Source: an uncultured Bdellovibrionales bacterium
GTDB lineage: Bacteria; Patescibacteriota; Minisyncoccia; Moranbacterales; UBA1568
Direction of reading: 5' to 3'
Length of the DNA: 64,000 nt
Assembly: GCA_964384235.1 (NCBI GenBank)
Contig: CAYLJX010000002.1
Coordinates: forward strand, 4,126 to 68,125
Shown: positions 3,974 through 39,853 of the stretch, piece after piece
Layout of the letters: each line of letters starts with the position of its first letter
Numbering within the stretch: the first letter of the stretch is position 1
The notes under the pieces: generated by a model
Database searches by the model: none
What the model was told of the DNA's origin: nothing
What the model saw: the letters and a program-made list of their open reading frames with translations, nothing else
Position numbers and translations under genes: made by a program

Positions 3974-4197
3974 AGGGGGTGTGGTTAGAGTCTATCTCAA
4001 AAATAGCTTTCAGACGATTTTTCTGTAATTTCGAGCGAAACGTTTGAAGGGTGAGGAGGAATAACGGGACTTTATTCCGACGAGCCGTGAAAGCGGTGCA
4101 GCCGAAATTCAGGAAAATCCAGTCAAAGAGTATTTTTGAGATAGACTCTGATTACGAAAACACCCTTCGGCAGGCGAGAGGGTGTTTTCCGAGAGAT

Positions 4198-5625: not shown

Positions 5626-6285
5626 ATGAATATCCAATACTACGGGGATTATTGCTTCAAGATAAGCACCAAACCGGCCGGACGAGCGACGGAAGATGTG
5701 GTCATCTGGACCGATCCGTTGGAAAAGGGGGCCGGACTGCGATCGCCGCAGGGACAGGCCGATGTCGTGTTTTTGACGCACGGCGACAGCGAGGAGGCGA
5801 GGAACAGCCTCAAGGGTGAACCGATCGTTTTCGATGCGCCGGGCGAATACGCCGTAAAGGGTATCTCGGCTTTGGGCTTTGCGAGTTTTCGGGACGGAAA
5901 GGAAGGAGCTGAGCGCGGTCAGAATACGATATTTGTCTTCGAAAGCGAGGATATCCATGTGGCTTTTCTCGGCGCGTTAGGGCACGACCTGTCGCCTGAG
6001 CTTTTGGACAAACTGAACGGCGTGGACGTGCTCTTTATTCCGGTCGGCGGCTCGGACACTCTTTCTCCCAAGCTTGCTTCGGAATTGGCGCGCAAGATCG
6101 AGCCGAGCATCATCATCCCGATGCACTACAAGATACCGGGACTGACGCTTCCCTTGGAGAGCGAGAAATCTTTCTGTGACGCCATCGGGAGCTGTCCGCA
6201 GGGTGCCCAGTCGAAGTTCAATATCAAGAAGAAGGATTTTGAAGGGAAACAGTTGGAGATTGTATTGCTCGAACGAGGTTCGTAG
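5626..6285 (+). CDS. MBL-fold metal-dependent hydrolase (UPF0173-like)
   Basis: VVFLTHGDSEEA and HYK motifs of small MBL-fold hydrolases; 219 aa. Confidence 0.6.
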   Translation: MNIQYYGDYCFKISTKPAGRATEDVVIWTDPLEKGAGLRSPQGQADVVFLTHGDSEEARNSLKGEPIVFDAPGEYAVKGISALGFASFRDGKEGAERGQNTIFVFESEDIHVAFLGALGHDLSPELLDKLNGVDVLFIPVGGSDTLSPKLASELARKIEPSIIIPMHYKIPGLTLPLESEKSFCDAIGSCPQGAQSKFNIKKKDFEGKQLEIVLLERGS

Positions 6286-6287
6286 GA

Positions 6288-6407
6288 GGAACCTTGTATT
6301 TGGCACATTTCTTTGTTCCGAGCTCTGGTGCTCGACGCCGTACGTTATCAGTACGGCTTACTCCGCTCCTCGCTCGCGCCTCGAACTGTACTCAAATACA
6401 AGATTCC
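6288..6407. ncRNA. conserved structured intergenic element, copy 1 (unknown class)
   Basis: About 90-nt core nearly identical to 54921-55010, closed by a 15-bp stem (GGAACCTTGTATTTG / CAAATACAAGATTCC). Fills the whole gap between the MBL hydrolase stop and the next gene start. Confidence 0.5.
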
Positions 6408-6417
6408 TTATAAGATA

Positions 6418-6912
6418 ATGGTTATGAGAGAGACGCTCTGGGAAAAAATCGAGAAGATCCGACAGGAACCGGAGCATATCCGTCGTCGCTATGTGTATGG
6501 CTGTCTCGTCGTTTCCATGGCGTTCGTTCTCGGTATCTGGTCGCTTTCTCTCAAGGAAAGTTTCCGGAGTGTGGCCAAGGACGTGCCGCAGGCGGTCGAG
6601 AAGGGTAAGGAACTCATTCCGCAGAACAACCAGGCTTCCCTTTCCGATCTTCTGGAGCAGGAGAGATCACTCTCGACATCCGGCGAAGAGCTCTCGGGGC
6701 AGGAATATTTTCAGGAACAGCTGAAGCAACGTGCCGAAAGCCAGTCTCCCGGGATGACGGAAGAAGGTGTTGATTCCGGATCGGTCAACGACCGCACGTC
6801 GACACTGGAACTGCCTTCCCAAGGAACCTTCCCCGAAAGAAAAGAAAAGGTTTCATCTCCGGAAGATCAACCGATGAAAGAAGAAGCTGAAGATACGAAC
6901 GAATATCAGTAA
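6418..6912 (+). CDS. hypothetical membrane-anchored acidic protein
   Basis: ATG GTT ATG at 6418 in the frame of track ORF 6313-6912 (upstream part is the conserved RNA-like element). One TM helix ([18 protein letters not shown]) and an acidic C-terminus. Confidence 0.5.
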
Positions 6913-6916
6913 CAAG

Positions 6917-9376
6917 ATGAGCGCTATGTCAGAAAAAACGGCATTTCATGAAGGAAAAATCGAAGCCCGTTCCATCGCGGACGAAGTGAAGCAATCCTAC
7001 CTCGACTATGCGATGAGCGTCATCGTGGCGCGCGCCCTGCCGGACGTCCGTGACGGTCTCAAGCCGGTGCACCGCCGCATCCTCTACTCCATGTGGTCGA
7101 CGGGGCTCCGCTCCACGGCCAAGTTCCGCAAATCAGCCACCGTGGTCGGTGAGGTGCTCGGTAAATACCACCCGCATGGCGATACGGCGGTGTATGACAC
7201 GATGGTCCGCATGGCGCAGGATTTCTCGCTCCGCTACCCGTTGGTGTGGGGACAGGGAAACTTCGGCTCGATGGACGGCGACAGCGCCGCGGCCTACCGT
7301 TACACCGAAGCCAAGCTCACGCCCATTGCCGAGGAGATGCTTCTCGATATCGAAAAGGACACAGTGGACTTCGTCCCCAACTTCGACGGGATGCACGACG
7401 AGCCGCTGGTCCTCCCGGCCAAGCTCCCGCAGCTCCTCCTCAACGGTACGGTCGGTATCGCGGTCGGTATGGCGACCAATATCCCGCCGCACAATCTCAA
7501 CGAACTCGTCGACGGTATCTGTCACCTCATCGATCATCCGGAGGCGAGTGTCGAGGACCTCATGCAGTTCGTGAAGGGGCCGGACTTTCCGACGGGCGGC
7601 ATCATCTACAACCAGAAGGACATCCGCGAAGCCTATGCCACCGGCAAGGGACCGATCATGACGCGCGCCAAGGCGGAGATCGTCGAGAACAAGGCCGGAC
7701 AATTCCAGATCATCGTGACCGAGATGACCTACGCGACCAACAAGGCCTCGCTCATCATGAAGATCGCCGACCTCGTGAAGGAAGACAAGCTCCAGGGGAT
7801 CAAGGATCTGCGCGACGAGTCCGACAAGGACGGCGTGCGTATCGTGGTCGACCTCAAGAAGGAAGCCTTCCCGCAGAAGGTCCTCAACTCGCTCTACCAG
7901 ATGACGGACCTGCAGAAGAATTTCAACGTCAACATGCTGGCCCTCGTCGACGGCGTCGATCCGCAGATCCTCACGCTCAAGTCCATCCTCGAACACTATA
8001 TCGTCCACCGCGAGAAGGTGGTGACGCGGCGCGCGCAGTATGAGCTCCAGAAGGCCAAGGATCGTGCCCACATCCTCGAGGGTCTCAAGAAGGCGCTCGA
8101 CCACATCGACGCCATCATCGATACCATCAAGAAGTCCCCGACCAAGGAAGAGGCGCACGCGAACCTCATGAAGAAGTTCAAGCTCTCCGAGCGGCAGGCG
8201 ACTGCTATCCTCGAGATGCGCCTCCAGACGCTCTCCGGACTGGAGCGCAAGAAGATCGAGGACGAGCTCGACGAGAAACTCAAACTCATCGCCTACCTCG
8301 AAGACCTCCTCAAACACCGTAAGAAGATCCTCGCCCTCGTGAAGAGCGAACTCGTCGAAGTGCGCGACAAATTCGGCGATGAGCGCCGCACCCGGGTGGT
8401 CAAGACCGGTGTCTCGGAGTTCAAGCAGGAAGATCTCATCCCCAACGAGGAGGCCATCGTCACGCTCACCGAGGATGGGTACATCAAGCGCATGAACCCG
8501 AGCGTCTATCGCGTGCAGAAGCGCGGCGGCAAGGGTGTCATCGGCGCGACGACCAAGGAAGAAGACCGTATCGCCAAGGTGCTCACCATCGAGACGCACG
8601 ACAACCTCATGTTCTTCACTGACACGGGTAAGGTCTTCCAGACGAAGGCCTATGAGATCCCGGAATCGTCCCGCACGGCCAAGGGTCAGGCCATCGTCAA
8701 CTTCCTCCAGATCTCTCCGGAGGAGAAGATCACGGCCATGATCGCCCTCAAGAAGGACGGGGCGCAGAAGTACCTCTTCATGGCGACTGCGAACGGTACC
8801 ATCAAGAAATCAAAGCTCGAAGACTTCGAAAACGTCCGCCGGAGCGGTCTCATCGCCATCAATCTGGAGAAGGGAGACTTCCTCGGATGGGTGCGCGCGA
8901 CGACCGGCGGGGACGAAGTGGTGCTCACGACGTCCGAGGCGCAGGCCATCCGTTTCAAGGAATCCGATGTCCGTCCGATGGGACGCACGGCTGCTGGCGT
9001 GCGCGGGATGAAGCTCAAGGGTTCTGACAAGATCGTCGCGATGGACGTGGTCGGTAAGGATGAAAAAGGCATGGAGCTCTTCATCCTCTCGCAGAACGGC
9101 CTCGGCAAACGGAGCGAACTCAAGTCCTACAAGATTCAGAAGCGTGGCGGCTCCGGTATCAAGACCATGCATCTCACGCCGAAGACCGGTAGGCTCGTCG
9201 GCGCGAGGATCACGAGCATGGCGGATGTGGAGAACGACATCATCATCACCTCGGAGAAGGGGACGATCATCCGGGTGCCCTTCAAGAGCGTGCCGCTCCT
9301 CGGCCGCGTGACGCAGGGGGTGCGCGTCATGAAGCCCCAGGCTGGCGACAGTGTCGCAGCGTTCACGCTGCTGTAG
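6917..9376 (+). CDS. gyrA: DNA gyrase subunit A
   Basis: [27 protein letters not shown] with the active-site Tyr context; C-terminal beta-pinwheel repeats; 819 aa. Confidence 0.95.
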
Positions 9377-12555: not shown

Positions 12556-12634
12556 CAGTGAACAAAGAACAGTCAACAGTGAACAGAAATGCTGAAAACG
12601 CACATCCTGTTGACTGCTGATTGTTGACTGTTGG
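12556..12634. repeat. imperfect inverted repeat built from AACAGTCAACAGTGAACAG units upstream of pnp
   Basis: Left arm CAGTGAACAAAGAACAGTCAACAGTGAACAG; right arm CTGTTGACTGCTGATTGTTGACTGTTGG. Confidence 0.6.
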
Positions 12635-16172: not shown

Positions 16173-16765
16173 GTTAGCAGTGAATTCTTTGACAACTCGC
16201 TCCCCCAAACCGTCACGAACGGTGAAAGAGTTCCCAGTCACTATTTCCCCCTAATAGTGATGGGGACTCTTTCACTGTTCAAGTGTCTCGGCAATGTACC
16301 GGGACCGCCTCGTCCTAACACGAGGACCAAAACAAAAACAAAAAGAGGGGTTAGCTACACAGGGGATGGAAAGCCGAACGGCTTATGCCTCCTGCGTAGC
16401 TAACTACCAGCTCTCGAAAAAATAATAAATGTCGGGAGAAAAACAAAAAGAAACAAAAAATCGTTCTTTCAAAAAAACAACCAAAGGCGAAACGCCAGAG
16501 AACGGTGAAGGGAGAAGTGCTTGAAACGTTAGGACAAGCGCAACAACGCAAGTGCACAAACTACAGGCGTGACTTATGGATCATGATGCCACTCACCCGG
16601 GCTAAATGACCAGCATACCTGTTGGCACATGCAAGTTCGGGCGCTCCAGCCAAATATTTATTTTATTGGGCGCAAGGAGCGCCCGGACACCAACATCTTG
16701 AGCAGAAGATAGGAGATAGGAAGTGGGAAATGAGTGAGGAAGAGAAGGCCGAAAGGCTGTTTTTT
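16173..16765 (+). ncRNA. candidate ~590-nt non-coding RNA (class unidentified)
   Basis: Lies between the consensus promoter and the terminator GGCCGAAAGGCTG TTTTTT (16746-16764). No credible ORF. Contains several extended helices (e.g. GGTTAGCTACACAGG...CCTGCGTAGCTAACC; GGCGCTCC...GGAGCGCC) and A-rich single-stranded tracts. Confidence 0.45.
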
Positions 16766-24286: not shown

Positions 24287-26533
24287 ATGAAATTCTGGGA
24301 AGCGGGACTCAACGAGGAACAGATGAAGGCGGTGCTCCAGACGGAGGGACCAGTCTTGATCCTGGCCGGGGCCGGCTCGGGCAAGACCAAAACGCTCACC
24401 CACCGGATCGCCTACCTCATCGCCGAGAAGCGGGTGTCGCCCTCGAATATCCTGGCGGTCACCTTCACCAACAAGGCGGCCGGCGAGATGCGGGAGCGTA
24501 TCGAAAAGCTCCTTTCGCAAAGCGAAGCAGCGGAGTTCGGCGCACAGGTGCTGCCGCAGCATATCGGAACGTTTCACAACATCTGCTCGCGGATCCTCCG
24601 GCGAGAGATCGCGGTCTTGGGTTACGATACGCGTTTCAACATCCTTGATGCCGATGATCAGCAGTCGATCGTCAAGAAGGCCATGAAGGAGCTCGAAATG
24701 AGCACCGATCAGGTCAAGCCACGCTCCATGCTCGAGGCCATCTCGCGGGCCAAGAACTCGCAGATAAGCGAAGAGCAGTTCCTCATGCAGGCCGGAAGCT
24801 ACTTCGAGGAGCTCGCGGCCAAGGTCTATGAGCGGTACCAGAAGGAACTCCGGCAGACGAACAGTCTCGATTTCGACGACCTCATTCTCCTCACCGTCCG
24901 GCTCTTTCAGGAACATCCGGACGTGCTCGGGCGCTACCAGGATCTCTTCCGCTACATCATGGTGGACGAATACCAGGATACCAACGCGCTCCAATACACG
25001 CTCATCCACCTCCTCGCCAAGAAACGAAAAAATATCTTCGTCATCGGCGATGACTACCAGTCGATCTACGGTTGGCGTCAGGCGGATATCAAGAACATCC
25101 TTAATTTCGAGAAGGACTACCCGGAAGCGGTCGTCATCACGCTCGACCGTAATTACCGTTCGACGCAGATCATCCTCGACGCGGCGGACGGCGTCATCTC
25201 ACGCAATGTCCATCAGCGTCACAAGAAACTCTGGACCGACGTGAAGGCAGGCGAGCAGATCACACTCGTACCGGCGGAAGACGAGGAGGCGGAAGCGCGC
25301 TTCGTGGCGGAGACTGTCGGGCGGATCCGCGGGGAGGGCCGGCGTTTCGGTGACTTTGCGGTGCTCTATCGGACCAACGCCCAGTCGCGTATGGTGGAAG
25401 AGATGTTCCTTAAGCACTCCATCTCCTACCGCATCGTCGGCGGACTGAAATTCTACCAGCGCAAGGAGATCAAGGATGTGATCGCTTACGTGCGGCTTTT
25501 CGAGAATCCGCGCGATCAGCTGGCCCTGGAGCGTATCGTCAATGAGCCGCCGCGCGGCATCGGCAAGGTGACGTTGGAAAAATGGGTGGGCGCGGCGCGG
25601 GAGCATTCGCAGGATTTTTTCGACGCGGCGTACGCGCTCACGACGGAGAACGGCATCAATCAGGGGAAAATCGCGGCCATCAGGCAGTTCGCGGACATGT
25701 TTTTGAGACTGCGCGAGGAGATGAAGGCGAAACAAGAGATGAAGCTCGCGGAACTCCTGAAACATCTCATCACGGACAGCGGCTACCTCAAGAGTCTCGC
25801 GGACGGGACGAGTGAAGGCGAAACGCGCCAGGAGAACGTCCAGGAACTTCTTTCCGTCGCCAAGAAATATGATGGGGTTGTCTTGAGCGAGGCGCTCTCT
25901 TTGTTCCTCGAAGAAGTGGCGCTCGCCTCGGATACGGATGAGATCAACCGCGAGCAGGATGCCGTGCACCTTATGACCGTCCATAGCGCCAAGGGGCTGG
26001 AATTCCCGATCGTCTTCATCATCGGTCTGGAGGAGGGGGTTTTTCCGCATTCGCGGAGCAACCTTTCGCAGCAGGAGATGGAAGAAGAGCGCCGGCTCAT
26101 GTACGTCGGTCTCACCCGGGCCAAGGAAAAAGTCCATCTTTTGTATACTGAACAGCGGACGATTTTCGGTTCGACCCAGGTCAATCCGCCGTCACGCTTC
26201 CTCTCCGAGATTCCCGAACACCTGGTGGAAGAAAAAGAGTGCGTCAGTTCCGGCATGATGGCAAAGAAGTATTTCAGGAAAAATTTCCACTCTTTCCCGC
26301 GAACGATGAAGACCAGCATCTCGTTTGAGGAAAAACCGAAAAGCGTTGAAGGGTCGGGGGCTTTCGTGAAACCGGTGGCGCCGGAAGATGTCCGGCCGGG
26401 CGATATGGTGGAGCATCCGCAGTTCGGCGGAGGACTGATCGTCTCCATCGCGGGAACGCTTGCTACCATTGCCTTCAAGCGCGCCGGCGTCAAAAAGATG
26501 ATGCTCGGCGTCGCACCGTTGAGAAAGCAATAA
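24287..26533 (+). CDS. uvrD: UvrD/PcrA-family ATP-dependent DNA helicase
   Basis: Walker A AGAGSGKTKTLTHRIAYL; helicase motifs II-VI (VDEYQDTN, TVHSAKGLEF etc.); 748 aa. Confidence 0.95.
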   Translation: MKFWEAGLNEEQMKAVLQTEGPVLILAGAGSGKTKTLTHRIAYLIAEKRVSPSNILAVTFTNKAAGEMRERIEKLLSQSEAAEFGAQVLPQHIGTFHNICSRILRREIAVLGYDTRFNILDADDQQSIVKKAMKELEMSTDQVKPRSMLEAISRAKNSQISEEQFLMQAGSYFEELAAKVYERYQKELRQTNSLDFDDLILLTVRLFQEHPDVLGRYQDLFRYIMVDEYQDTNALQYTLIHLLAKKRKNIFVIGDDYQSIYGWRQADIKNILNFEKDYPEAVVITLDRNYRSTQIILDAADGVISRNVHQRHKKLWTDVKAGEQITLVPAEDEEAEARFVAETVGRIRGEGRRFGDFAVLYRTNAQSRMVEEMFLKHSISYRIVGGLKFYQRKEIKDVIAYVRLFENPRDQLALERIVNEPPRGIGKVTLEKWVGAAREHSQDFFDAAYALTTENGINQGKIAAIRQFADMFLRLREEMKAKQEMKLAELLKHLITDSGYLKSLADGTSEGETRQENVQELLSVAKKYDGVVLSEALSLFLEEVALASDTDEINREQDAVHLMTVHSAKGLEFPIVFIIGLEEGVFPHSRSNLSQQEMEEERRLMYVGLTRAKEKVHLLYTEQRTIFGSTQVNPPSRFLSEIPEHLVEEKECVSSGMMAKKYFRKNFHSFPRTMKTSISFEEKPKSVEGSGAFVKPVAPEDVRPGDMVEHPQFGGGLIVSIAGTLATIAFKRAGVKKMMLGVAPLRKQ

Positions 26534-26607
26534 ACAGTCAACAGTTAACAAAAAACGGGTTCCATAGGGATCCGTTTTTTCTATTCCTTGTTAATTGTTA
26601 ACTGTTA
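26533..26607. terminator. bidirectional terminator hairpin nested inside an AACAGTCAACAGTTAACAA inverted repeat
   Basis: AACAGTCAACAGTTAACAA, then AAAACGGGTTCCATAGGGATCCGTTTTTT, then TTGTTAATTGTTAACTGTT between convergent uvrD and xerC. Confidence 0.65.
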
Positions 26608-26612
26608 TTTGT

Positions 26613-27605
26613 TTATCTCTTCTTCCTTTTGGCGTGGAAGGTTTGGTGGATCTCCTTAAGACGCTCGTTGGTGATGTGGGTGTAGATCTGGGTGGTGGTG
26701 ATGGAGGAGTGGCCGAGCATGGCTTGGACGGAGCGGATATCGGCGCCGTTCACCAAGAGGTCGGTGGCAAAGGAATGACGGAGGGTATGCGGGTGGACAT
26801 CCTTCACGATGCCGGCCTTTTTGGCATAGTGTTTGACGAGGCGCTGGATACTGCGTGGCGTGAGGCGCAAACTCTCACGTTTCCCGTTTTTCTTGTTGAA
26901 GAGGCCCTTCTTGGGGAAAGAGACGAAGAGGGCCGGATCGATGTCAGCCCGCTTGTCGAGGTAGGCTTTGAGCGTGGTCTTGGCCGAAGGAGAAATGAAG
27001 ACGACCCGGAGTTTCCCACCCTTCCCGCGCACGCTGAACTCCTCCTTGTCGAGGTTGAAAGAGTGCCGGTCGAGCGAGACGAGCTCGGAGACACGCAGGC
27101 CGGAGGAAAAAAGGAGCTCGAGGATGGCTCTGTCGCGCAGGTGACGGACATCTTTTCCTCCCGCCTCGCCGAGACCGGTTTTGCGAGTCGAGGCTGGGTC
27201 CGTGGCCTGAATAAGTCGCTCCACTTCCTCGAATTCGAGGAAGTCCACCTGTCGATCGGGGATTTTTCCGACCTCGATCTTTTCTGCCGGGAGGGTCTCG
27301 ATGTCTTGTTTGGCTAGGTATTTGAGGAAGGAGCGGAGCACGATGGCGTGATAGGCCTGTGTGTTTTTCTTGAGGGTGGTTTCGCGACGGGTCGGCTTGC
27401 GATTGAGGTGAATCCGGTACTCCCGGACTTTTTCGGCGGTGATATCGGCCGGTTTGTGGATCGGACCCCATCCGAAAAAGGCGGAAAGGACGTTTTCGTA
27501 GCTTTCGAGGGTGCGAGGGGAGCGGTTCATCTCGATTTCCAGATGTTCCAGGAACTCCTTGGCCAGAGTTTCGATCTCGTTTTTCGGTTTTTCAAAGGCT
27601 CTCAT
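26613..27605 (-). CDS. xerC: tyrosine site-specific recombinase XerC/XerD family
   Basis: HPHTLRHSFATDLLVNGADIRSVQAMLGHSSITTTQIYTHI with catalytic Tyr; N-terminal SAM-like core-binding domain. Likely start MRAFEKP at 27605 (track ORF extends to 27677). Confidence 0.9.
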   Translation of the reverse strand: MRAFEKPKNEIETLAKEFLEHLEIEMNRSPRTLESYENVLSAFFGWGPIHKPADITAEKVREYRIHLNRKPTRRETTLKKNTQAYHAIVLRSFLKYLAKQDIETLPAEKIEVGKIPDRQVDFLEFEEVERLIQATDPASTRKTGLGEAGGKDVRHLRDRAILELLFSSGLRVSELVSLDRHSFNLDKEEFSVRGKGGKLRVVFISPSAKTTLKAYLDKRADIDPALFVSFPKKGLFNKKNGKRESLRLTPRSIQRLVKHYAKKAGIVKDVHPHTLRHSFATDLLVNGADIRSVQAMLGHSSITTTQIYTHITNERLKEIHQTFHAKRKKR

Positions 27606-27748
27606 GGGAGAAAATATTAGACGACATTGGAATTGTAGCATTTTTTTAGTTGTCATTCTCGCGGAAGCGGAAATCAAGGAGTCTCAAGGCTGATACATGA
27701 GAACAAGACGGAATTCTGTGGTGCCGGGATCCCTGCCTGCGCGGGGAT

Positions 27749-27772
27749 GATTCCGATGTATACGTCGGAATC
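27749..27772. promoter_or_regulatory. 24-bp near-perfect palindrome GATTCCGATGTATACGTCGGAATC, candidate dif-like Xer site
   Basis: Central TGTATA flanked by inverted 9-bp arms, 144 bp upstream of the xerC start. Confidence 0.3.
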
Positions 27773-28063
27773 ACTTATCCACAACTAAGATGCTTCAAAT
27801 AAGCCATAAATATAGGAATATGGTGTAATATTCATTGACCGAAAGGGGAAAACGCGCTAAACTGACTTTTGTAAAAATTAGGGTAAAGGCCCGATAGGGC
27901 GATATTTCTGCCTTTGGTGGAACGCGCTTTTTAAGGCCTTTGCTATCGAAAGATCCATCCTATTCGTACTCTTACGACTCATGTCCTTTCTTTTTTCCGG
28001 AACGGTTTCCGGAAGCTTTCGAGAAGGACGGCCGACAGGGCTGTCCAGACGGAAAAAAGAGGG

Positions 28064-29242
28064 ATGAAGGAGCGGTTGGAGGACCTGCACACCAAGACCC
28101 ACCATATCCAGACCAAGGTGCTGCAGTTTATCAAGGAAATTTCCGGCTACCGTGTCGTGCGGGTTTTTCGTAACTATTCGGCCTTTTCCATCGTGGCGTC
28201 GAGCGCCCTCCTGGTGTCCGCGAGCAACCTCACCCAGGGCAAAGAGGCCGGGAGCGTGCTGTTCGGCTATGCCGGAGGCGATACGGCGGAGGAAAGCCTT
28301 TCTTCCAAACATCGTATCGCAGCTCAGGTGAGCAAAAAAGAGAACCTTTCGCTCGTGCCTTTGGCAAGCGCTTCCAATACCGTCGATCCGAGCCAAAAGG
28401 ACGAGATATCGCTCCTGGATGTCCAGGGAACGGCGCTTTCCGGGCAGGTGCTCCTTTCGACCCAGACCGCCGATATTGCCAAGGATCCGGAGGAGGACGG
28501 TGGCGTCAAGATCTATACCGTCGAATCCGGCGATACGGTGAGCTCCATCGCGGCAGCCCATGCGATCACGGTCAATACGATCCTCTGGGCCAACGACCTG
28601 GCCAACGTCGATGAGATCAAGCCGGGGGACCAGCTCTTCATCCTGCCGGTCGCCGGGTTCTCCTATGCCGTCAAGGACGGGGACACGATCGAGAAGATCG
28701 CCGAAAAATACAAGGCCGAAAAGGAAAAGATCATCGCCTACAACGAACTGCCGGCCAACGGCGAGGTGCGCGCGGGAGACGTGATCATCATTCCGGACGG
28801 TCGTAAGGAAGAAACCGCTCCCAAGCCGGCTCCGAGTACGGGCGAACTGGAGCGTCGTCAGTACGCGAGCTCGGCCGGTGGCGTGGCGACGGACATCTCC
28901 TCCGGTTTCCGCAAGCTCGAGGGTAAAGCCGGGACCGGACACCGGTTCCCGTACGGGTGGTGTACCTGGTACGTGGCGCAGAAGCGCTTCGTCCCGTGGG
29001 GTGGGAATGCCGGTACGTGGCTCTATAAAGCCAAGGCGCTCGGCTATCGCACCGGACGCAAGCCGACCGTCGGATCGATCATGGTGACGACGGAAAATCG
29101 CTACTACGGCCACGTGGCCCTCGTCGAGAAGGTGAGCGGCGATACCATCACCGTGAGCGAGATGAACTATGTCGGTTGGGGCAAGGTGAACCGCCGTACC
29201 CTCTCGGCCTCCAGCCGCGCGATCAAGGGATTCATTTACTAG
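28064..29242 (+). CDS. peptidoglycan hydrolase with two LysM domains and a C-terminal CHAP domain
   Basis: YTVESGDTVSSIAAAH...IKPGDQLFILP and YAVKDGDTIEKIAEKY (LysM). C-terminal FPYGWCTWYVAQKR...YGHVALVEKV (CHAP Cys/His). Start position uncertain. Confidence 0.75.
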   Translation: MKERLEDLHTKTHHIQTKVLQFIKEISGYRVVRVFRNYSAFSIVASSALLVSASNLTQGKEAGSVLFGYAGGDTAEESLSSKHRIAAQVSKKENLSLVPLASASNTVDPSQKDEISLLDVQGTALSGQVLLSTQTADIAKDPEEDGGVKIYTVESGDTVSSIAAAHAITVNTILWANDLANVDEIKPGDQLFILPVAGFSYAVKDGDTIEKIAEKYKAEKEKIIAYNELPANGEVRAGDVIIIPDGRKEETAPKPAPSTGELERRQYASSAGGVATDISSGFRKLEGKAGTGHRFPYGWCTWYVAQKRFVPWGGNAGTWLYKAKALGYRTGRKPTVGSIMVTTENRYYGHVALVEKVSGDTITVSEMNYVGWGKVNRRTLSASSRAIKGFIY

Positions 29243-29289
29243 CTTGTAGCTGGTAGGAAATAGCTTGTAGGATAATATGCAAGGAGAGA

Positions 29290-29315
29290 ATCCGGGTGAG
29301 AGCCCGGATTTTTTC
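29290..29315 (+). terminator. intrinsic terminator nested in a larger inverted repeat (29241-29339)
   Basis: ATCCGGGTGAGAGCCCGGAT TTTTTT flanked by AGCTTGTAGCTGGTAGG / CTACCAGCTACCAGCT arms. Confidence 0.65.
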
Positions 29316-29416
29316 TACCAGCTACCAGCTATTTCCTATCATCCTCACGAAGACTGTGGTATACTTCTAAGTGAAAAATCTTTCTTTCGAAACGACTGGC
29401 TTCTCTCGGGCAAGCT

Positions 29417-31306
29417 ATGACTTTTTTCAAAAAAAACAAAAAGAAAAATCTTTTCGTGTTTTTCTTGCTCCTCTTTATCGTGGGAGGTGTTTTGTTTTTC
29501 ATAGGGAACGATGCGGCTTTAGCTCAGGAAGCTAGTGGAGCACCAGAGGGGGACTCCTCTTGGATAGGAGACAAGGTAACCATTCTTTTCAAGGCGATAT
29601 TTTACGGGGTTTTCGTAGCGTTCGGATATCTGACCTCTCTCGCAGTAACCATCTTTGGTTGGGCTGTCAAACCGGAATTCATCTCCGGAAACACGGGGTT
29701 TCTCAACCGGGCGGCGATTTACGATCTTTGGAAATTCATCCGTGACTTCTTCAACCTGTTCTTCATCATCGTACTTCTTTACACGGCCTTCACTATCGTC
29801 TTCCAAGTGGCCAAGGATTACAAGAAAGCGCTCCTCAATCTCGTCATCATGGCGCTTCTGGTGAACTTCAGTTTCCCTATTTCGCGCTTCATCATCGACA
29901 CCGCCAATGTCCCGATGTATTTTTTCATCAATCAGGCCATGCCAAGTAACAAGGGAGAGGAGGCTTTCGGGACGATTCTCAGCGCATCGAAGATTCAGGA
30001 TATCCTCATCCCCGGGTATAGTTCCGGCAATGGGTGGGATTATGTCAAACAGGACAGCGTGTATTTCAGCTACCTCATCATAGCGATCATCTTCATGTTC
30101 CTTTTTTCCATATCGCTTCTGGTCCTGGCAGTAATGCTCGTCGTTCGTCTCATTGCGCTCGTCATCCTGGTGATCTTCTCCTCGGTCGGGTTCGCGGCGA
30201 CGATCATGCCCGGCTTCGACAAGTACGCCAAGATGTGGTGGGACAACCTGCTCAAGTACGCCTTCTTCGGTCCGGCCGCCATGCTCATGATGCTCATCGC
30301 GGTACGGTTCCTCGGGGCGATGCGGGAGGATGCCACATACAGCAATATCAAAAGTGTGGCGCTCAATAATGCCAGTTCGGCCGATTATATCGCCTCCATG
30401 GCGCTTTTCAGTATTCCGATCATCCTCATTTGGTTCTCTATCGGTCTCGCGCAGCAGTTCTCCATCGCCGGCGCGAGCATGGTCACTGGTAGGGGGAAGC
30501 AGTACGGAAAGTGGCTTGCGAAAAAGACATACAATAATCCATTGACGAATAATGCTTGGACAAGGGGAACTGCCTCCGGTCTGAAAGAGCGTGCTGAGAG
30601 CAATAAGTATGTCAAGTGGGTCATGCCGAAGACGTATTCCGATTTGAGCAAGAAGAAAGAGGAACAATATAAGGGATATGCATCCGGCGGAGCTACCGGA
30701 AAGGCAAGGGTTATCGAGAATCAACACAACAAGAAGGTGGCGGAGAAAGAGAAGGGGATGGATGAACTTCGCATAAGCGAGTCCCAGATGAAGCAAATGA
30801 TCGACCCGGCCAATAGTGGTAAATATAGTGCGGCGGAAAAGGAGGCCGCAGTGAATCTCTTGAATAAGAAAGAGAAGTTCGGCAATGCCGGCGAACTGCA
30901 TAACGCCGTCGAGGCGATCAAGGCTGCCAACAAGAACGAAAGCGCCCAGAAGGAAAAGATCACCGAACTCCTTAAGAAGGTAAAGGGTGATGGTCTCGAT
31001 GGTATGAGTGTGGCGCAGTATGACAATATCGCGAACCTTGGTCCGGAAATGAAGAAGGAGCTTGATAAGAAGCTGAAGAAAGAAGGAAAAACAAATGTGC
31101 TCGTTGAAGTCGAGATGAGAACTCCGGGCGCGAATCGTGCACAAATTGTCGGAGATATGCTTAAGGGGATGAAGACGGAGGATGTCGCGAAGCAAGATCT
31201 CTTTAAGGCAGGTAGTCCGAATAAGGCAGAAGCGGATGCTTGGCTCAGTTATGTCCGTACTCAGAACCCGGAGCGTTATCAGAAAATCAAGGCAGACCTT
31301 CCATAA
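29417..31306 (+). CDS. VirB6/TrbL-like polytopic membrane protein with long K/E-rich C-terminal extension
   Basis: Signal peptide, about 6 TM helices with an N-terminal extracytoplasmic region, hydrophilic coiled C-terminus; first gene of a T4SS-like cluster. Confidence 0.5.
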   Translation: MTFFKKNKKKNLFVFFLLLFIVGGVLFFIGNDAALAQEASGAPEGDSSWIGDKVTILFKAIFYGVFVAFGYLTSLAVTIFGWAVKPEFISGNTGFLNRAAIYDLWKFIRDFFNLFFIIVLLYTAFTIVFQVAKDYKKALLNLVIMALLVNFSFPISRFIIDTANVPMYFFINQAMPSNKGEEAFGTILSASKIQDILIPGYSSGNGWDYVKQDSVYFSYLIIAIIFMFLFSISLLVLAVMLVVRLIALVILVIFSSVGFAATIMPGFDKYAKMWWDNLLKYAFFGPAAMLMMLIAVRFLGAMREDATYSNIKSVALNNASSADYIASMALFSIPIILIWFSIGLAQQFSIAGASMVTGRGKQYGKWLAKKTYNNPLTNNAWTRGTASGLKERAESNKYVKWVMPKTYSDLSKKKEEQYKGYASGGATGKARVIENQHNKKVAEKEKGMDELRISESQMKQMIDPANSGKYSAAEKEAAVNLLNKKEKFGNAGELHNAVEAIKAANKNESAQKEKITELLKKVKGDGLDGMSVAQYDNIANLGPEMKKELDKKLKKEGKTNVLVEVEMRTPGANRAQIVGDMLKGMKTEDVAKQDLFKAGSPNKAEADAWLSYVRTQNPERYQKIKADLP

Positions 31307-31327
31307 ATTACCTCCTAAGCAGTTCGT

Positions 31328-32458
31328 GTGAGTCCGGAGAGAAAAAACAACCCGATCTATTATCCAATGCTTGTTTCTGATCAAGGCACTGCTGATGCAG
31401 CGGATCAGAAGATTGAGGATGCGCGTTGGAAAACGCTTCGTGCTTTATCCAAAGAAAAGCGCGATCTTCTTGTTTCTACGGAACTTCCTTTGGCTCTGAT
31501 GAGCTTACAAGACACGTATCATTTGAGCGATGTGGTCATTGGCAGCATAAGTCTCTTCATCCGAAAGATCTTTTTCGGCGAGTTGACGCTGGAACAGGCG
31601 GAGGCGAAGATCGGGAGCATACTCATGACGACCGGGGGAGGCGATCCCAACCAGGCCAAGGCAATCGTGGAGTTCATCCGAAAGGACATCATGACGATCA
31701 AGCCGAAACCGGAAGTGGAGGAGAACGATGAGATGAAGGAGGAAGAGAAGCCGGCTGCGGGAACGGTCAGTATGCCGCTCTTGCAGGCGCTGTCCAAGTA
31801 CGAGCAGCTGGCCAATCAGTTGATCACCGGAGAGCGGATCAGGATCAAGGGTCAAGGGGAGGCCGTGCGGCCGTCGCTTCTCAACTGGATCAAGTATTAT
31901 CGCGACGAGCTCGGCGTGGGCTATCACGATAACGTGCAGCGCGGACAGTTCCTCTTCCGTTCGGAGAACGGCAAGCACCTCTCCACCGAGGAGCGCGAGC
32001 GCATCAATCTCGTCCTGCGTTCCATCGAGGAGAACCTGCCAGTCCAGATCGATACGGAACGCAGTGAGATCGTGTTTCCGCGAAGCAACGCTCCCACTCA
32101 GTCGAAACCAAGAACGGACAGGGCGGACGTGATGGCCACGGCCAAAGTGGAGAAGGGACCGGCTCTCCCTGGTACTCCGGCGCATGAGACTCCGGCCAAC
32201 AGCGCGTTCGTGAGCGGTAATCTGGGTATGGTGCAGGGGACGCATTTCGGGACTTCGGAACAGAAAGCTTCAGAGAAGGGGTCGCTCAGCTTTTCTTCCT
32301 CACATGTCTTCCCGGCTGAGAAAGAGAAGGCCTCGAACCCTTCGACAAGCTCAGGGCAAGCACCGAAATCTGCTCCGCAAACTCCCCAGGCTCCCGTATC
32401 GAAACCCAATCCCTTCCGTATCCGCCCAGTCAGTCTGTCGAAGAAGAATGGCAAGTGA
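31328..32458 (+). CDS. hypothetical protein (T4SS-like cluster)
   Basis: 376 aa soluble protein; Pro/Ser/Ala-rich low-complexity C-terminus. Confidence 0.45.
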   Translation: MSPERKNNPIYYPMLVSDQGTADAADQKIEDARWKTLRALSKEKRDLLVSTELPLALMSLQDTYHLSDVVIGSISLFIRKIFFGELTLEQAEAKIGSILMTTGGGDPNQAKAIVEFIRKDIMTIKPKPEVEENDEMKEEEKPAAGTVSMPLLQALSKYEQLANQLITGERIRIKGQGEAVRPSLLNWIKYYRDELGVGYHDNVQRGQFLFRSENGKHLSTEERERINLVLRSIEENLPVQIDTERSEIVFPRSNAPTQSKPRTDRADVMATAKVEKGPALPGTPAHETPANSAFVSGNLGMVQGTHFGTSEQKASEKGSLSFSSSHVFPAEKEKASNPSTSSGQAPKSAPQTPQAPVSKPNPFRIRPVSLSKKNGK

Positions 32459-32560
32459 TAGCACGCGTGAGAGAAGAGCCGGAACGTGATATAATTGACA
32501 AGCTCTGGTATTTTTCCTCATTTCCTATCTCCTATCTCCTACTTCCTATCTCCTGTTTTT

Positions 32561-32998
32561 ATGATGTTCAGTGTCCCACAATTCATCGATGTCGAGGACA
32601 AGATCGCCGGTCCGCTCACCTGGAGGCAGCTCCTGTGGATGATCGGGATGGGAGCGATACTCCTTTTCTTTTACAGTATCTTCGATACGGCGCTCTTCAT
32701 CGTCATCGCGGTGCCGACGACGCTCCTCTTCATCGGGCTGGCCTTCTATCGGCCGAACGGCGTCTCGCTCACCACATTCATCTTTCATGGCATCCTCTTC
32801 TTCTTCCGTCCCAAGGTAGCAGTGTGGGAGCGGCCGGTACGGTCTCTCGGAGCGTCGCAGCGGACCGCCGAGGAGGCTGAGAAGAAGCGTCAGGCGGCCC
32901 TGGCGGCGGAGGCCGAGATGAAGGCGAAAAAGGATCTGAGCCAGGACAAGCTTCGTGAATTGGCGCGTATTCTGGATAGCCGAGGACGGGGAGTGTAA
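32561..32998 (+). CDS. PrgI/VirB3-like small membrane protein
   Basis: MMFSVPQFIDVEDKIAGPLTWRQLLWMIGMGAILLFF... has the two-TM architecture of PrgI-family proteins. Start at ATG 32561 within track ORF 32495-32998. Confidence 0.55.
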   Translation: MMFSVPQFIDVEDKIAGPLTWRQLLWMIGMGAILLFFYSIFDTALFIVIAVPTTLLFIGLAFYRPNGVSLTTFIFHGILFFFRPKVAVWERPVRSLGASQRTAEEAEKKRQAALAAEAEMKAKKDLSQDKLRELARILDSRGRGV

Positions 32999-33037
32999 GC
33001 GAGTTTTCTCTCCCACAATACAAACAACTCTCGAAAA

Positions 33038-33721
33038 ATGGAATTACTCAAACCAAAAAACAAGCCGGCAAGCGGCGGCAGCACACAGAAATACGTGGAC
33101 GTCGAGGAGATCCGCGACAGCGTCATCGTGCTCAAGAGCGGTGCGCTTCGTTCGGTATTGCTCGTGTCATCGCTTAACTTCGATCTCAAGTCGAGCGAGG
33201 AGCAGGATGCCATCATCGGGCAGTACCAGAATTTCCTCAACTCGCTCGATTTCCCCGTGCAGATCGTCATTTCTTCGCGACGTTTCAACATCGAGCCGTA
33301 CCTCGAGCTCCTCAAGGATCAGGAGAAGCAGCAGGAAAACGAGCTCCTGCGCTTCCAGATTTCCGAATACAAGGGCTTCATCAAGAACCTGACGGAAGTC
33401 TCGAACATCATGGCCAAGTACTTCTACGTGGTCATACCCTTTTCTCCGGTGGAGGACAAGAAGAGTGGGTTCTTCTCGCAGCTCTCCGGCATCTTCCAAC
33501 CCAAGCAGAGCATCGGGCTCCGCGGCGATCTCTTCGATACGTACAAGAGCCAGCTTTTCCAGCGCGTGGACCATGTCGCGGCGGCCCTCTCCGGAACGGG
33601 ACTGCGCGTCACGCAGCTCAATACCGAAGAGATCATCGAACTCCTGTACAACACCTACAACCCTTCGCTCTTCACGACTGCCATCGTCAAGAACATCGAA
33701 GCGGTGGAACTCGCCCCCTAA
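33038..33721 (+). CDS. VirB4-family N-terminal domain protein (split from the ATPase)
   Basis: YVDVEEIRDSVIVLKSGALRSVLLVSS...QDAIIGQYQNFLNSLDFPVQIVI resembles the N-terminal domain of VirB4/TrsE/PrgJ. Ends 12 nt before the ATPase ORF in a different frame. Confidence 0.55.
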   Translation: MELLKPKNKPASGGSTQKYVDVEEIRDSVIVLKSGALRSVLLVSSLNFDLKSSEEQDAIIGQYQNFLNSLDFPVQIVISSRRFNIEPYLELLKDQEKQQENELLRFQISEYKGFIKNLTEVSNIMAKYFYVVIPFSPVEDKKSGFFSQLSGIFQPKQSIGLRGDLFDTYKSQLFQRVDHVAAALSGTGLRVTQLNTEEIIELLYNTYNPSLFTTAIVKNIEAVELAP

Positions 33722-33732
33722 AACACATCGAC

Positions 33733-35754: not shown

Positions 35755-35763
35755 CGTTCGCTT

Positions 35764-36258: not shown

Positions 36259-36272
36259 TCCAGAATGTATCT

Positions 36273-36926: not shown

Positions 36927-36931
36927 TCCCT

Positions 36932-39694: not shown

Positions 39695-39760
39695 GACTTC
39701 TCTTTTGATGTGAGTACACAAAAACCCGACATCTCATAAGGTGTCGGGTTTTCTCATATG

Positions 39761-39842
39761 TGGGTAGGGAGAGACTCGAACTCTCATGGATTGCTCCGCT
39801 AGCTCCTAAGGCTAGTGCGTATACCAATTCCGCCACCTACCC
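39761..39842 (-). tRNA. tRNA-Leu(TAG)
   Basis: Minus-strand GGGTAGG TG GCGG..ACGC A CTAGC CTTAGGA GCTAG (anticodon loop CUUAGGA, anticodon UAG); variable arm; T-arm GAGAG TTCGAGT CTCTC; acceptor CCTACCC A. CCA not encoded. Confidence 0.75.
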
Positions 39843-39853
39843 AGCATCTTTTC

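What the first reader, a model, noticed from the sequence alone, without database searches (positions are those of the whole stretch)
6288..6407. ~120-nt intergenic element present twice with compensatory base-pair changes (copy 1)
The cores 6303-6392 and 54921-55010 are about 90% identical at the nucleotide level, but the copies sit in different frames and contexts, so the conservation is not protein-coding. The outer 15-bp closing stems have unrelated sequences in the two copies (GGAACCTTGTATTTG/CAAATACAAGATTCC versus AGACTTTTTCGTTCG/CGAACGAAAAAAGTCT), yet both pair. An inner helix also covaries (CGAGC/GCTCG versus GCAAGC/GCTTGC). A CCGTAC-loop-GTACGG hairpin keeps its stem while the loop differs. 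This is the signature of a structured RNA (or a protein-recognised DNA structure), not a simple repeat or MITE.
Basis: seen in the sequence. Interest (0 to 1): 0.75.

Follow-up and report, generated by a model that had tools for sequence, protein, structure and literature searches.

The report
Rod-shaped structured element of Patescibacteria
The two ~120-base copies belong to an undescribed family of strand-specific, rod-shaped hairpins scattered through ultra-small (CPR/Patescibacteria) bacteria; dozens of compensatory changes preserve the pairing, and it is most likely a small non-coding RNA gene that relocates between sites, with unknown function.

Summary
Copies at 6286-6408 and 54903-55027 share a 94% identical core, while their outer stems are only 47% identical yet both pair.

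- **Known families:** Rfam 15, phage and plasmid collections and the literature give no match.
- **Homologues:** pattern scans recovered 24 further copies in Patescibacteria MAGs and metagenomes.
- **Structure:** all copies fold into one unbranched rod. 95% of pair cells are standard pairs, and 32 of 39 pairs change on both sides.
- **Strand:** the folded strand is the window's minus strand. G.U outnumbers A.C 73 to 12, and 23 of 24 copies fold better on that strand.
- **Insertions:** relatives have 5-42 nt at both sites, so both copies are lineage-specific insertions of the whole hairpin. No target duplication, conserved termini or recurring neighbour gene was found.
- **Polarity:** the 3' end of the folded strand abuts a gene or tRNA boundary (median 3 nt). 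The 5' side keeps an AT-rich spacer (median 81 nt).
- **Related family:** a second rod lies at 3981-4155 on the plus strand.

Best reading: a relocating small structured RNA gene of unknown function. The main rival is a selfish hairpin element moved through a single-stranded intermediate. No transcript data were available.

The parts
6286..6408 (-). Copy 1 of the rod element (family A). The whole hairpin is read on the minus strand.
   Evidence: CM R1 scores it 126.8 bits, E 7e-33. RNA MFE is -53.6 kcal/mol on the minus strand against -43.6 on the plus strand. Four Moranbacteria relatives lack it at the orthologous site.
6288..6302 (-). Copy 1 outer stem P1, the arm next to the MBL-hydrolase stop codon (TAG 6283-6285). 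On the folded strand this is the 3' arm.
   Evidence: It pairs with 6393-6407: 15 bp with one G.U on the minus strand.
6393..6407 (-). Copy 1 outer stem P1, the 5' arm on the folded strand. The 10 nt AT-rich spacer 6408-6417 separates it from the ATG at 6418.
6327..6372 (-). Copy 1 conserved apex. It comprises helix GG.GC/GC.CC with an A.A mismatch, purine-rich internal loops (GGAGUAA / GUCGA on the folded strand) and the terminal hairpin 6337-6343/6351-6357 with a variable loop.
   Evidence: These are the most conserved columns of alignments A3 and A4. Part of that invariance comes from the search patterns.
6319..6323 (-). Copy 1 helix P4 (CGAGC), pairing with 6373-6377 (GCTCG). It covaries with copy 2 (GCAAGC/GCTTGC).
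   Evidence: All 5 P4 pairs change on both sides across the homologues.
54903..55027 (-). Copy 2 of the rod element (family A). It lies between the HMA-DsbD_2-cupredoxin gene (stop TGA 54903-54905) and copA (ATG 55045).
   Evidence: CM R1 scores it 120.4 bits. The site is empty in L058 (91% aa identity, 5 nt spacer) and in L059 (84%, 16 nt spacer).
54905..54919 (-). Copy 2 outer stem P1, the arm that overlaps the last base of the stop codon.
   Evidence: It pairs with 55011-55026 with a one-base bulge.
55011..55026 (-). Copy 2 outer stem P1, the 5' arm on the folded strand. An 18 nt AT-rich spacer (55027-55044), absent from L058, follows it.
3981..4155 (+). Third rod-like hairpin, related 'family B'. 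It has a 19 bp perfect outer stem (3987-4005/4131-4149) and is antisense to its neighbours gmk and rpsA.
   Evidence: MFE is -83.6 kcal/mol (z -11) on the plus strand against -53.8 on the minus strand. It is 71% similar over 83 nt to a rod in another Moranbacteria genome, L056:9181-9260. It shares the motifs UUCGAG...GAGGAG...GNCGAGC...CGAAAU with family A.

Best explanation
The element is a gene, present in at least two copies per genome, for a small structured RNA of about 120 nt. It belongs to a previously undescribed Patescibacteria family and is read from the window's minus strand.

Shown:
- The single strand folds into one unbranched rod of six helices.
- The outer stem of 15-20 bp is free to change in sequence but must pair.
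- The inner two-thirds is conserved in sequence and carries several purine-rich (tandem G.A-type) internal loops below a hairpin with a variable loop.
- Copies sit at non-orthologous places in different genomes, and both window copies are absent from the same sites in relatives.

Inferred:
- The unit consists of an AT-rich 5' spacer that holds its promoter, followed by the rod.
- No dedicated terminator is needed. The 3' end would be made by processing: by RNase P where a tRNA follows directly, and elsewhere at the base of the outer stem or at the neighbour's terminator.
- The long outer stem would protect the RNA ends.
- The conserved loops near the apex would be the binding platform for a conserved protein, so the RNA would act in trans as a scaffold or decoy.
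- New copies would arise by duplication or horizontal transfer of the small unit.
For: Structure:
- RNAalifold gives a single rod with 28 of 39 pairs compensated on an unfitted MAFFT alignment.
- On the CM alignment 95.3% of cells pair, 32 of 39 pairs change on both sides, 0 of 500 shuffles reach the observed values, and slid controls give 31-38%.

Strand:
- G.U outnumbers A.C 73 to 12 in paired cells, and 41 to 12 without the two conserved wobble columns.
- 23 of 24 copies fold better on this strand, by about 9 kcal/mol on average.
- The family B rod differs by 30 kcal/mol between strands.
- The usual mutation biases (C-to-T changes on the sense or leading strand) would put the G.T pairs on the opposite strand (my reasoning, using the GC skew).

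Selection on each copy:
- The core is 94% identical between the two window copies, but the outer stem is only 47% identical and still fully paired.
- No decayed copies turn up with the CM and filters off.

Gene-like layout:
- The median gap to the neighbour is 81.5 nt on the 5' side and 3 nt on the 3' side. Only 1 of 24 gaps is 10 nt or less on the 5' side, against 16 of 23 on the 3' side.
- The 5' flank is AT-rich, and -10-like hexamers are enriched 6-9 nt upstream of the first paired base: 10 hits in 27 sequences, against about 0.44 hits per offset further upstream.
- Three copies end 0-8 nt before a tRNA on the same strand (L028, L027:5615-5735, L038).
- The family B rod is followed 10 nt later by a hairpin plus U-run terminator on its own strand.

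Not cis-regulatory:
- Orientation to the neighbours is mixed and no neighbouring protein family recurs.
Against: - No transcript data were available, so RNA was never observed.
- The sigma-70 scan finds no promoter on either strand near either window copy.
- In the window the 5' spacers are only 10 and 18 nt long, so a promoter would have to overlap the neighbouring gene's start.
- There is no U-run after the rod in most copies.
- DNA energy parameters give the same strand preference, so a single-stranded DNA form is not excluded.
- The distribution is sporadic: 8 species among 185,579 GTDB representatives carry the exact 19-mer. Together with the lineage-specific insertions, this fits a mobile or accessory element as well as a gene.
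- No partner protein was identified.
- The apparent invariance of the apex is partly imposed by the search patterns.
Confidence: 0.42

Rival explanations
1. A selfish, non-autonomous mobile hairpin. The rod, as RNA or as single-stranded DNA, is recognised through its conserved apex by an enzyme encoded elsewhere in the genome, such as an HUH/Y1 nuclease or a reverse transcriptase, and is copied into new intergenic sites. The conserved structure would then serve mobility, not the host.
For: - Both window copies and the family B rod are absent from the same sites in relatives.
- No two genomes carry a copy at a syntenic site.
- The taxonomic distribution is sporadic, yet the core is near-identical across distant Patescibacteria lineages.
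- Related subfamilies coexist: L052:7486-7607, L027:5615-5735 and family B.
- Six copies abut tRNA genes.
- Insertion has a polarity: one fixed end of the element sits against the gene boundary.
- The strand asymmetry also holds with DNA parameters.
Against: - Copy number is low: about 2 per genome, including a 1.36 Mb contig and the 64 kb window searched with filters off.
- There are no decayed copies or fragments.
- The outer stems stay perfectly paired after diverging to 47-61% identity within one genome. That needs selection on resident copies, which a selfish element does not get.
- The termini are not conserved and there is no target-site duplication.
- No transposase or reverse transcriptase lies next to any copy.
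- Nothing was found in the viral, phage or plasmid collections.
Confidence: 0.3
2. A DNA-level site: a cruciform or hairpin bound by a protein, used for recombination, replication or nucleoid organisation, in the manner of attC, REP or single-strand origin sites.
For: - It is a long imperfect palindrome with a conserved centre.
- It folds strand-specifically with DNA parameters as well.
- Where two copies lie on one contig they are in direct orientation (window; L027:4567 and L027:5813; L052; and both pattern matches on the 1.36 Mb contig fall on the same strand).
- A XerC-like recombinase gene is present in the window.
Against: - By GC skew the folded strand of copies 1 and 2 is the leading-strand template, while that of the family B rod is the lagging-strand template. 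There is therefore no consistent replication polarity.
- The family B rod carries so many G.U pairs that its two strands differ by 30 kcal/mol. As G.T mismatches these would weaken a DNA hairpin (inference).
- No attC R/L boxes, no arrays and no GTAG-type REP heads were seen on reading the sequences.
- Templated correction of a palindrome would not favour G.T over A.C on one strand.
Confidence: 0.12
3. A cis-acting part of the neighbouring mRNAs: a 3'-end stabiliser or terminator hairpin placed just after the stop codon, an RNase III processing site between genes of an operon, or a 5' leader or riboswitch.
For: - Many copies start 0-3 nt after a stop codon or a tRNA 3' end.
- Even the weaker strand folds at -44 to -50 kcal/mol.
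- In the tRNA-linked copies of L027 and L032 the outer stem ends in a U-run.
- RNase III is encoded in at least one carrier genome (L028).
Against: - Where the element abuts a stop codon, the mRNA always carries the complement of the selected strand: about 10 cases with the 3' end of the folded strand against the stop or tRNA end, against none or one with the 5' end.
- Orientation and neighbouring genes are otherwise unrelated.
- There is no U-run in most copies, and the terminator scan is negative at both window copies.
- In L047, L049 and at the family B rod the neighbouring gene has its own separate terminator between its stop codon and the element.
- Close relatives manage without the element, with 5-42 nt spacers.
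Confidence: 0.1
4. A chance or neutral palindromic duplication with no function.
For: None beyond the fact that function was not tested.
Against: - CM E-values of about 1e-31.
- 24 further copies in other genomes, with 236 doubly changed pair cells.
Confidence: 0.02

Closest known systems
Dispersed imperfect-palindrome repeats of bacteria (ERIC of enterobacteria, Correia/NEMIS of Neisseria, RPE of Rickettsia, RUP/BOX of Streptococcus)
   Same: About 100-150 bp intergenic imperfect palindromes that fold as long RNA hairpins, occur in either orientation and are present or absent between related genomes. Here they also occur in reduced genomes and sometimes lie in frame with a neighbouring ORF (window ORF 6313-6912).
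   Different: Those families have conserved termini (terminal inverted repeats), often TA target duplications, and tens to hundreds of copies per genome, and each is confined to one genus or family. Here the termini are the most variable part and the centre the most conserved. There is no target duplication, only about 2 copies per genome, and the same core appears in distant Patescibacteria classes.
Rod-like protein-binding small RNAs (6S RNA, bacterial SRP 4.5S RNA)
   Same: Unbranched, end-paired rods with conserved internal loops. Such genes relocate during evolution and are often processed rather than terminated, and some genomes carry two 6S paralogues.
   Different: No Rfam match even at E up to 10. 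There is no large central bubble as in 6S and no SRP domain IV loops or GNRA tetraloop. The distribution is sporadic rather than universal.
tRNA-linked small RNA genes (plant dicistronic tRNA-snoRNA genes, cited in PMC12045711 refs 66-67; viral tRNA-miRNA units, from my own knowledge)
   Same: Three copies end 0-8 nt before a tRNA on the same strand, so RNase P cleavage would define the 3' end of the rod.
   Different: Only a minority of copies are tRNA-linked, and three others are convergent with a tRNA 3' end.
Integron attC sites
   Same: Imperfect palindromes of about 60-140 bp in which structure, not sequence, is conserved. They fold strand-specifically and lie right after stop codons.
   Different: In attC the ends (R/L boxes) are conserved and the centre varies, which is the reverse of this element. 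The sites come in cassette arrays next to an integrase. Here the copies are solitary, sit among housekeeping genes and show no R-box consensus.
Guide-bearing hairpin RNAs: IS110 bridge RNA and TIGR stem-loop units (PMC12045711)
   Same: Hairpin RNAs with functional internal loops. TIGR systems are reported to be frequent in CPR bacteria.
   Different: In those RNAs the loops are the variable (guide) part, and the RNA is encoded next to its protein or in arrays. Here the loops are conserved, the variable part is fully base-paired, and no Tas or IS110 gene or array is nearby.
Group II intron domain V
   Same: The apical hairpin AAGCCGUA(C/U)...(G/A)UACGG(U/C)GU resembles the lower helix of domain V, including an AGC with a G.U wobble. 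This resemblance is recalled from memory.
   Different: There is no 2-nt bulge, upper helix or GNRA loop, no domain VI, and no Rfam Intron_gpII hit. I take the resemblance to be coincidental.

Membership tests
Any Rfam 15 family | Covariance-model match at or above the gathering score, or at least a suggestive E-value | tested here: not met
   The window and 8 homologous loci at gathering score gave only tRNAs. Permissive E<=10 scans of copy 1 and of L023 gave nothing except a chance rteR hit at E 3.2.
MITE / DDE-transposon derivative | Terminal inverted repeats conserved among the copies of one genome | tested here: not met
   Outer-stem identity between copies in one genome is 0.47 (window) and 0.61 (L047 versus L051), while the core is 0.94-0.96 identical.
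MITE / DDE-transposon derivative | Target-site duplication flanking the element | tested here: not met
   Flanking direct repeats are 0-2 nt in 25 of 27 copies. The two longer ones are a 3-nt match and a low-complexity A-run.
MITE / DDE-transposon derivative | Presence/absence polymorphism between related genomes | tested here: met
   Relatives have empty sites at both window loci.
REP / BIME | Short (20-40 bp) G+C-rich palindromes with a GTAG or CGTC head, in high copy number and often clustered, with a RAYT gene in the genome | tested here: not met
   The element is about 120 nt, has 2 copies in 64 kb and no such head. RAYT presence elsewhere in the genome could not be tested.
Integron attC | Conserved R''/L''...L'/R' boxes (RYYYAAC / GTTRRRY) at the ends, a variable centre, and cassette arrays | tested here: not met
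   Reading the sequences found no R-box consensus at the ends. The centre is conserved and the ends vary. The copies are solitary among housekeeping genes.
Intrinsic terminator | G+C-rich hairpin immediately followed by a U-run | tested here: not met
   The terminator scan is negative at both copies. Most copies have no U-run on either strand.
Riboswitch / cis-regulatory leader | Constant orientation upstream of a recurring set of genes | tested here: not met
   Orientation is mixed, and no neighbouring family recurs across loci.
Retron ncRNA (msr-msd) | Adjacent reverse-transcriptase gene and a branched msr/msd fold closed by a1/a2 repeats | tested here: not met
   The rod is unbranched and the neighbours are housekeeping genes.
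6S RNA | A rod of about 150-200 nt with a large central bubble, and an Rfam 6S match | tested here: not met
   The largest loops are 6x7 and 7x5 nt, and there is no Rfam hit.
Structured non-coding RNA (generic) | Statistically supported covariation for a consensus secondary structure | tested here: met
Structured non-coding RNA (generic) | Evidence that the folded strand is transcribed | not testable with these tools
   No transcriptome data were available. The only evidence is indirect: the G.U bias, the AT-rich 5' spacer with -10-like boxes and the tRNA linkage.

The most novel reading that the evidence does not exclude
The rods (families A and B and the variant apex types) form a superfamily of horizontally spreading structured RNAs specific to episymbiotic CPR bacteria. 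One possibility is an RNA that propagates itself through a single-stranded intermediate using only a conserved apex as its handle, which would be a new mode of mobility with neither terminal repeats nor target duplication. The other is the RNA subunit of an unrecognised ribonucleoprotein that these reduced genomes exchange.
Probability: 0.2. Interest if true: 0.85.

Novelty: new variant of a known kind. Interest (0 to 1): 0.6.

Why it matters
Very few non-coding RNAs are known from Patescibacteria beyond the universal ones, and these organisms are largely uncultured. A family with this much covariation, a clear strand, a defined architecture and a second related family is a ready-made candidate for a new RNA class.

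Its behaviour is also unusual. It relocates like a mobile element but lacks the hallmarks of one, and each resident copy stays under selection for pairing. Working out how it spreads and what binds its conserved purine-rich loops could reveal either a new RNA-protein system of reduced genomes or a new route of small-element mobility.

There are practical consequences too. The element breaks short-read assemblies and misleads gene callers about the start of the downstream gene.

Tried and rejected
- **Rfam:** gathering and permissive scans found nothing.
- **Public collections:** three viral-contig pattern scans gave only chance hits, checked by alignment score or by the CM. Phage and plasmid BLAST gave no match.
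- **Literature:** searches by topic and by the core sequence itself found nothing relevant.
- **TIGR and IS110:** the TIGR-Tas paper was read because it mentions CPR hairpin RNAs. I rejected the link because guide loops are variable and array-linked, and these are not.
- **Core inserted into a pre-existing terminator palindrome:** rejected. Outer stems are homologous between copies at unrelated loci in different genomes (L023, L037, L046, L047), and the empty sites contain no palindrome.
- **Special mechanism for outer-stem divergence:** considered because the core is 94% identical. It is not needed. The flanking coding DNA is only about 78% identical to the relative with the empty site (my count from the sequences printed), so there was time for near-neutral compensatory change.
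- **Neighbour genes:** no recurring partner protein.
- **Promoters and terminators:** the sigma-70 and terminator consensus scans were negative.
- **Replication-strand polarity:** inconsistent between family A and family B.
- **Other ideas:** coding potential was rejected because of the covariation. The hammerhead-like CUGAUGA in some loops is not conserved. K-turn and sarcin-ricin readings of the loops were tried by eye and do not fit cleanly.
- **Dead ends:** L052:11921-12067 was checked as a possible further rod and is branched, so it is not one. Extending the window leftwards with the FtsH-like ORF at 563-2404 failed because that exact protein is not on record.

Full report
**The observation.** Aligned, a core of about 91 nt (6302-6392 and 54919-55010) is 92-94% identical, and the similarity stops sharply at both ends. 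Each core is enclosed by its own 15-16 bp inverted repeat: 6288-6302/6393-6407 and 54905-54919/55011-55026. The inner helix CGAGC/GCTCG versus GCAAGC/GCTTGC differs by a true compensatory change. The GCCGTAC/GTACGGC hairpin keeps its stem around different loops. A 23-mer of the core occurs twice against none expected. Both copies fold far better than shuffled sequence, with z from -5 to -9.

**Setting.** Best protein matches place the genome in Candidatus Moranbacteria (Patescibacteria/CPR).
- Copy 1 begins 1-2 nt after the stop codon of an MBL-fold hydrolase gene (5626-6285). It ends 10 nt before the ATG (6418) of a small membrane-protein gene that precedes gyrA.
- Copy 2 overlaps the last base of the stop codon of an HMA-DsbD_2-cupredoxin gene (53553-54905). 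It ends 18 nt before copA (55045), inside a copper operon.
- All four flanking genes are on the plus strand.

**Known families.** Rfam 15 gives only three tRNAs in the window. Permissive scans at E up to 10 give nothing at copy 1 and only one chance hit (rteR, E 3.2) at a homologue. Phage and plasmid collections, viral contigs and the literature give nothing, and no paper contains the core sequence.

**Homologues.**
- An exact 19-mer scan of one genome per GTDB species found nine copies in seven MAGs (L027 carries two) plus one chance hit.
- A two-block pattern scan of JGI metagenomes found 17 real matches, some of them the same sequences again, plus five chance hits.
- A covariance model built from 24 copies then found two variant copies in the fetched loci. 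L052:7486-7607 scores 79.5 bits and has a different apex on the same lower rod. L027:5615-5735 scores 38.9 bits.
- The carriers are labelled Patescibacteria, Uhrbacteria and Saccharibacteria, or are unnamed. Three are labelled Bdellovibrionales or Gammaproteobacteria. At least one of these (L026) shares YraN and ComM genes in the neighbourhood with Moranbacteria, so those labels are doubtful.
- Caveat: the fully invariant apex columns are exactly the bases the two patterns demanded. The unrequired neighbouring bases are still highly conserved, but 'invariant' overstates it, and all counts of carriers are lower bounds.

**Structure.** Every copy folds into one unbranched rod. On the folded strand it reads as follows:
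- P1, 15-20 bp and variable in sequence;
- P2, UGCA/UGYG, with a U.G in 18 of 25 sequences;
- P3, UUC/GAA or covarying equivalents;
- an internal loop, GAGGCG/CAACGAA;
- P4, 5-6 bp and variable;
- a GA/GCA loop;
- P5, GG-A-GC/GC-A-CC, with an A.A mismatch;
- a loop GGA-G-UAA/GU-C-GA with a lone G-C pair;
- P6, GCCGUAC/GUACGGU, whose closing G.U is present in 14 of 25 sequences;
- a variable terminal loop of 3-9 nt.

On the unfitted MAFFT alignment 28 of 39 pairs show compensatory changes. On the model-fitted alignment:
- 95.3% of 966 pair cells are standard pairs. Column shuffles give 70.2%, with 0 of 500 reaching the observed value, and slid partners give 31-38%.
- 32 of 39 pairs change on both sides, in 236 cells.

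The purine-rich loops look like tandem G.A-type non-canonical pairs. I could not assign them to a named 3D motif.

**Strand.** The folded strand is the reverse complement of the window's plus strand.
- In paired cells G.U outnumbers A.C by 73 to 12, or 41 to 12 without the two conserved wobble columns. The other strand would therefore have 89% standard pairs rather than 95%.
- 23 of 24 copies fold better on this strand, by about 9 kcal/mol on average.
- Transcription- or replication-linked C-to-T bias would put G.T on the plus strand here (GC skew; my reasoning). The asymmetry therefore looks selected.
- DNA parameters give the same preference, so this test does not separate RNA from single-stranded DNA.

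**Both copies are insertions.**
- Four Moranbacteria relatives at about 80% protein identity have the same gene order, MBL hydrolase, small protein, gyrA, with only 10-42 nt after the hydrolase stop codon and no element.
- At the copper operon, relatives at 91% and 84% identity have 5 and 16 nt between the same stop codon and the same copA start.
- In the window that space holds the rod plus 18 nt of AT-rich sequence on the 5' side of the folded strand.
- The model with filters off finds no canonical copy in 66 kb of four relatives, and with default filters none in the 24 kb of L058 and L059.
- No two genomes carry a copy at a syntenic site, and no neighbouring protein family recurs.

**It does not look like a transposon.**
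- The ends are the least conserved part. Within a genome the cores are 0.94-1.00 identical, but P1 identity is as low as 0.47 (window) and 0.61 (L047 versus L051).
- P1 is nonetheless part of the unit and not a pre-existing target. Similar P1 sequences occur at unrelated loci in different genomes (L023, L037, L046, L047). By my reading of the aligned sequences, the differences among those P1 stems are transitions matched on both arms.
- There is no target-site duplication.
- There are no fragments or decayed copies.
- Only about two copies were found per genome, including the two pattern matches on a 1.36 Mb contig.
- P1 stays fully paired after that much divergence. This indicates selection for pairing on each resident copy, which favours a functional element over pure selfish DNA.

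**Layout relative to neighbours.**
- The 3' end of the folded strand abuts a gene boundary. The median gap is 3 nt, and 16 of 23 gaps are 10 nt or less.
- That boundary is either the stop codon of a convergent gene or the 3' CCA end of a convergent tRNA, or else the start of a gene or tRNA on the same strand. It is never a conserved sequence.
- The 5' side keeps a spacer with a median of 81.5 nt, and only 1 of 24 gaps is 10 nt or less. The true gap at copy 1 is 10 nt to the ATG at 6418, because the script skipped the small gene that overlaps the element.
- The 5' spacer is AT-rich (about 0.6, against about 0.5 on the 3' side). It carries -10-like hexamers enriched 6-9 nt upstream of the first paired base: 10 hits in 27 sequences, against about 0.44 hits per offset further upstream.
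- Three copies end 0-8 nt before a tRNA on the same strand.
- Inside co-directional gene pairs the rod is antisense to the genes in 11 cases and sense in 3.
- In a genome under deletion pressure, this is the expected layout for a unit that needs its upstream flank (a promoter) but nothing downstream.
- Against that, the consensus scans see no sigma-70 promoter or terminator at either window copy, and there the spacers are only 10 and 18 nt.

**A second family.** An inverted-repeat scan revealed a third rod at 3981-4155.
- It has a 19 bp perfect outer stem. It folds at -83.6 kcal/mol (z -11) on the plus strand but only -53.8 on the minus strand.
- It lies between gmk and rpsA, antisense to both. 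A hairpin plus U-run terminator follows it 10 nt downstream on its own strand.
- It is 71% similar over 83 nt to a rod between yidC and rnpA in another Moranbacteria genome, also antisense to its neighbours.
- It shares with family A the motif series UUCGAG...GAGGAG...[hairpin]...GNCGAGC...CGAAAU.
- In the relative L054 only 59 nt separate gmk from rpsA.
- Together with the variant apex types in L052 and L027, this points to a wider superfamily of such rods.

**Interpretation.** The best-supported reading (about 0.4) is a relocating small RNA gene.
- Shown: the rod, its covariation, its strand, the insertions and the polar layout.
- Inferred: transcription from the 5' spacer, 3'-end formation by processing, and a trans-acting, protein-binding role for the conserved loops.

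The rivals are these:
- The main rival (about 0.3) is a selfish hairpin element moved through a single-stranded intermediate and recognised through its apex. It explains the insertions and the sporadic distribution. It explains poorly the low copy number, the intact and selected resident copies, and the lack of any nearby enzyme.
- A DNA-level site (about 0.12) and a cis-acting mRNA hairpin (about 0.1) fit less well, for the reasons listed under the rivals.

**Novelty.** The element matches no described family. It resembles dispersed palindromic repeats such as ERIC or Correia in size, fold and presence/absence behaviour. It inverts their conservation pattern, with a conserved centre and free ends, and it crosses class-level boundaries. 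I rate it a new variant of a known kind, of solid but not extraordinary interest until its transcription and partner are known.

Noticed in passing
window 3981-4155 (+): A third, larger rod-like hairpin ('family B') lies between gmk and rpsA. It folds at -83.6 kcal/mol on the plus strand against -53.8 on the minus strand. It is related to a rod at L056:9171-9271 and shares sequence motifs with the element under study.
   Followed up: partly
window 4160-4190: A hairpin flanked by an A-run and a T-run (ACACCCTTC...GAGGGTGT) looks like a bidirectional intrinsic terminator. It would serve rpsA on the minus strand and the family B rod on the plus strand.
   Followed up: no
window 12556-12632, 16217-16280, 26525-26621, 29240-29341, 40294-40377, 41877-41960: Long AT-rich, low-complexity inverted repeats (20-32 nt arms) lie in intergenic regions and are probably this genome's terminators. 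Two of them share the word ACAGTCAACAG. They give weak, non-specific hits to the rod model.
   Followed up: no
window 6313-6912; loci L004, L005: An ORF reads in frame through copy 1 into the small membrane-protein gene. Some public gene calls therefore start that protein inside the element (194 aa instead of 164 aa).
   Followed up: partly
L002 (contig end) and L060:1-50 (contig start): Short-read contigs of the same strain break inside the repeated core of copy 1 and of copy 2. The repeat fragments assemblies.
   Followed up: partly
window 51290-57408: A copper-resistance operon: multicopper oxidase, CsoR-like repressor, HMA-DsbD_2-cupredoxin membrane protein, then CopA. Close relatives have 5 or 16 nt between the last two genes, but here copy 2 separates them by 139 nt.
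   Followed up: partly
window 26613-39694: A XerC-like tyrosine recombinase (26613-27677, minus strand), a LysM-CHAP hydrolase (28064-29242) and a TraC/VirB4-like ATPase (33733-35754) lie among unannotated large ORFs. This is a type IV secretion or conjugation-like cluster next to tRNA genes at 39760-40272.
   Followed up: no
L052:7486-7607 and 8909-9031; L027:5615-5735 and 5813-5932: In two other genomes a single gene is bracketed by two rods of different subtypes: ftsA in L052 (direct orientation) and tRNA-Val in L027 (inverted orientation).
   Followed up: partly
L054:530-930: A relative's locus holds an array of the perfect 16 bp palindrome TGTTCCACGTGGAACA, repeated at least six times at 30-120 nt spacing.
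   Followed up: no
L026, L027, L030 (record titles): MAGs labelled Bdellovibrionales or Gammaproteobacteria carry the element. At least L026 shares YraN and ComM genes in the neighbourhood with Moranbacteria, so these taxonomic labels are probably wrong.
   Followed up: partly
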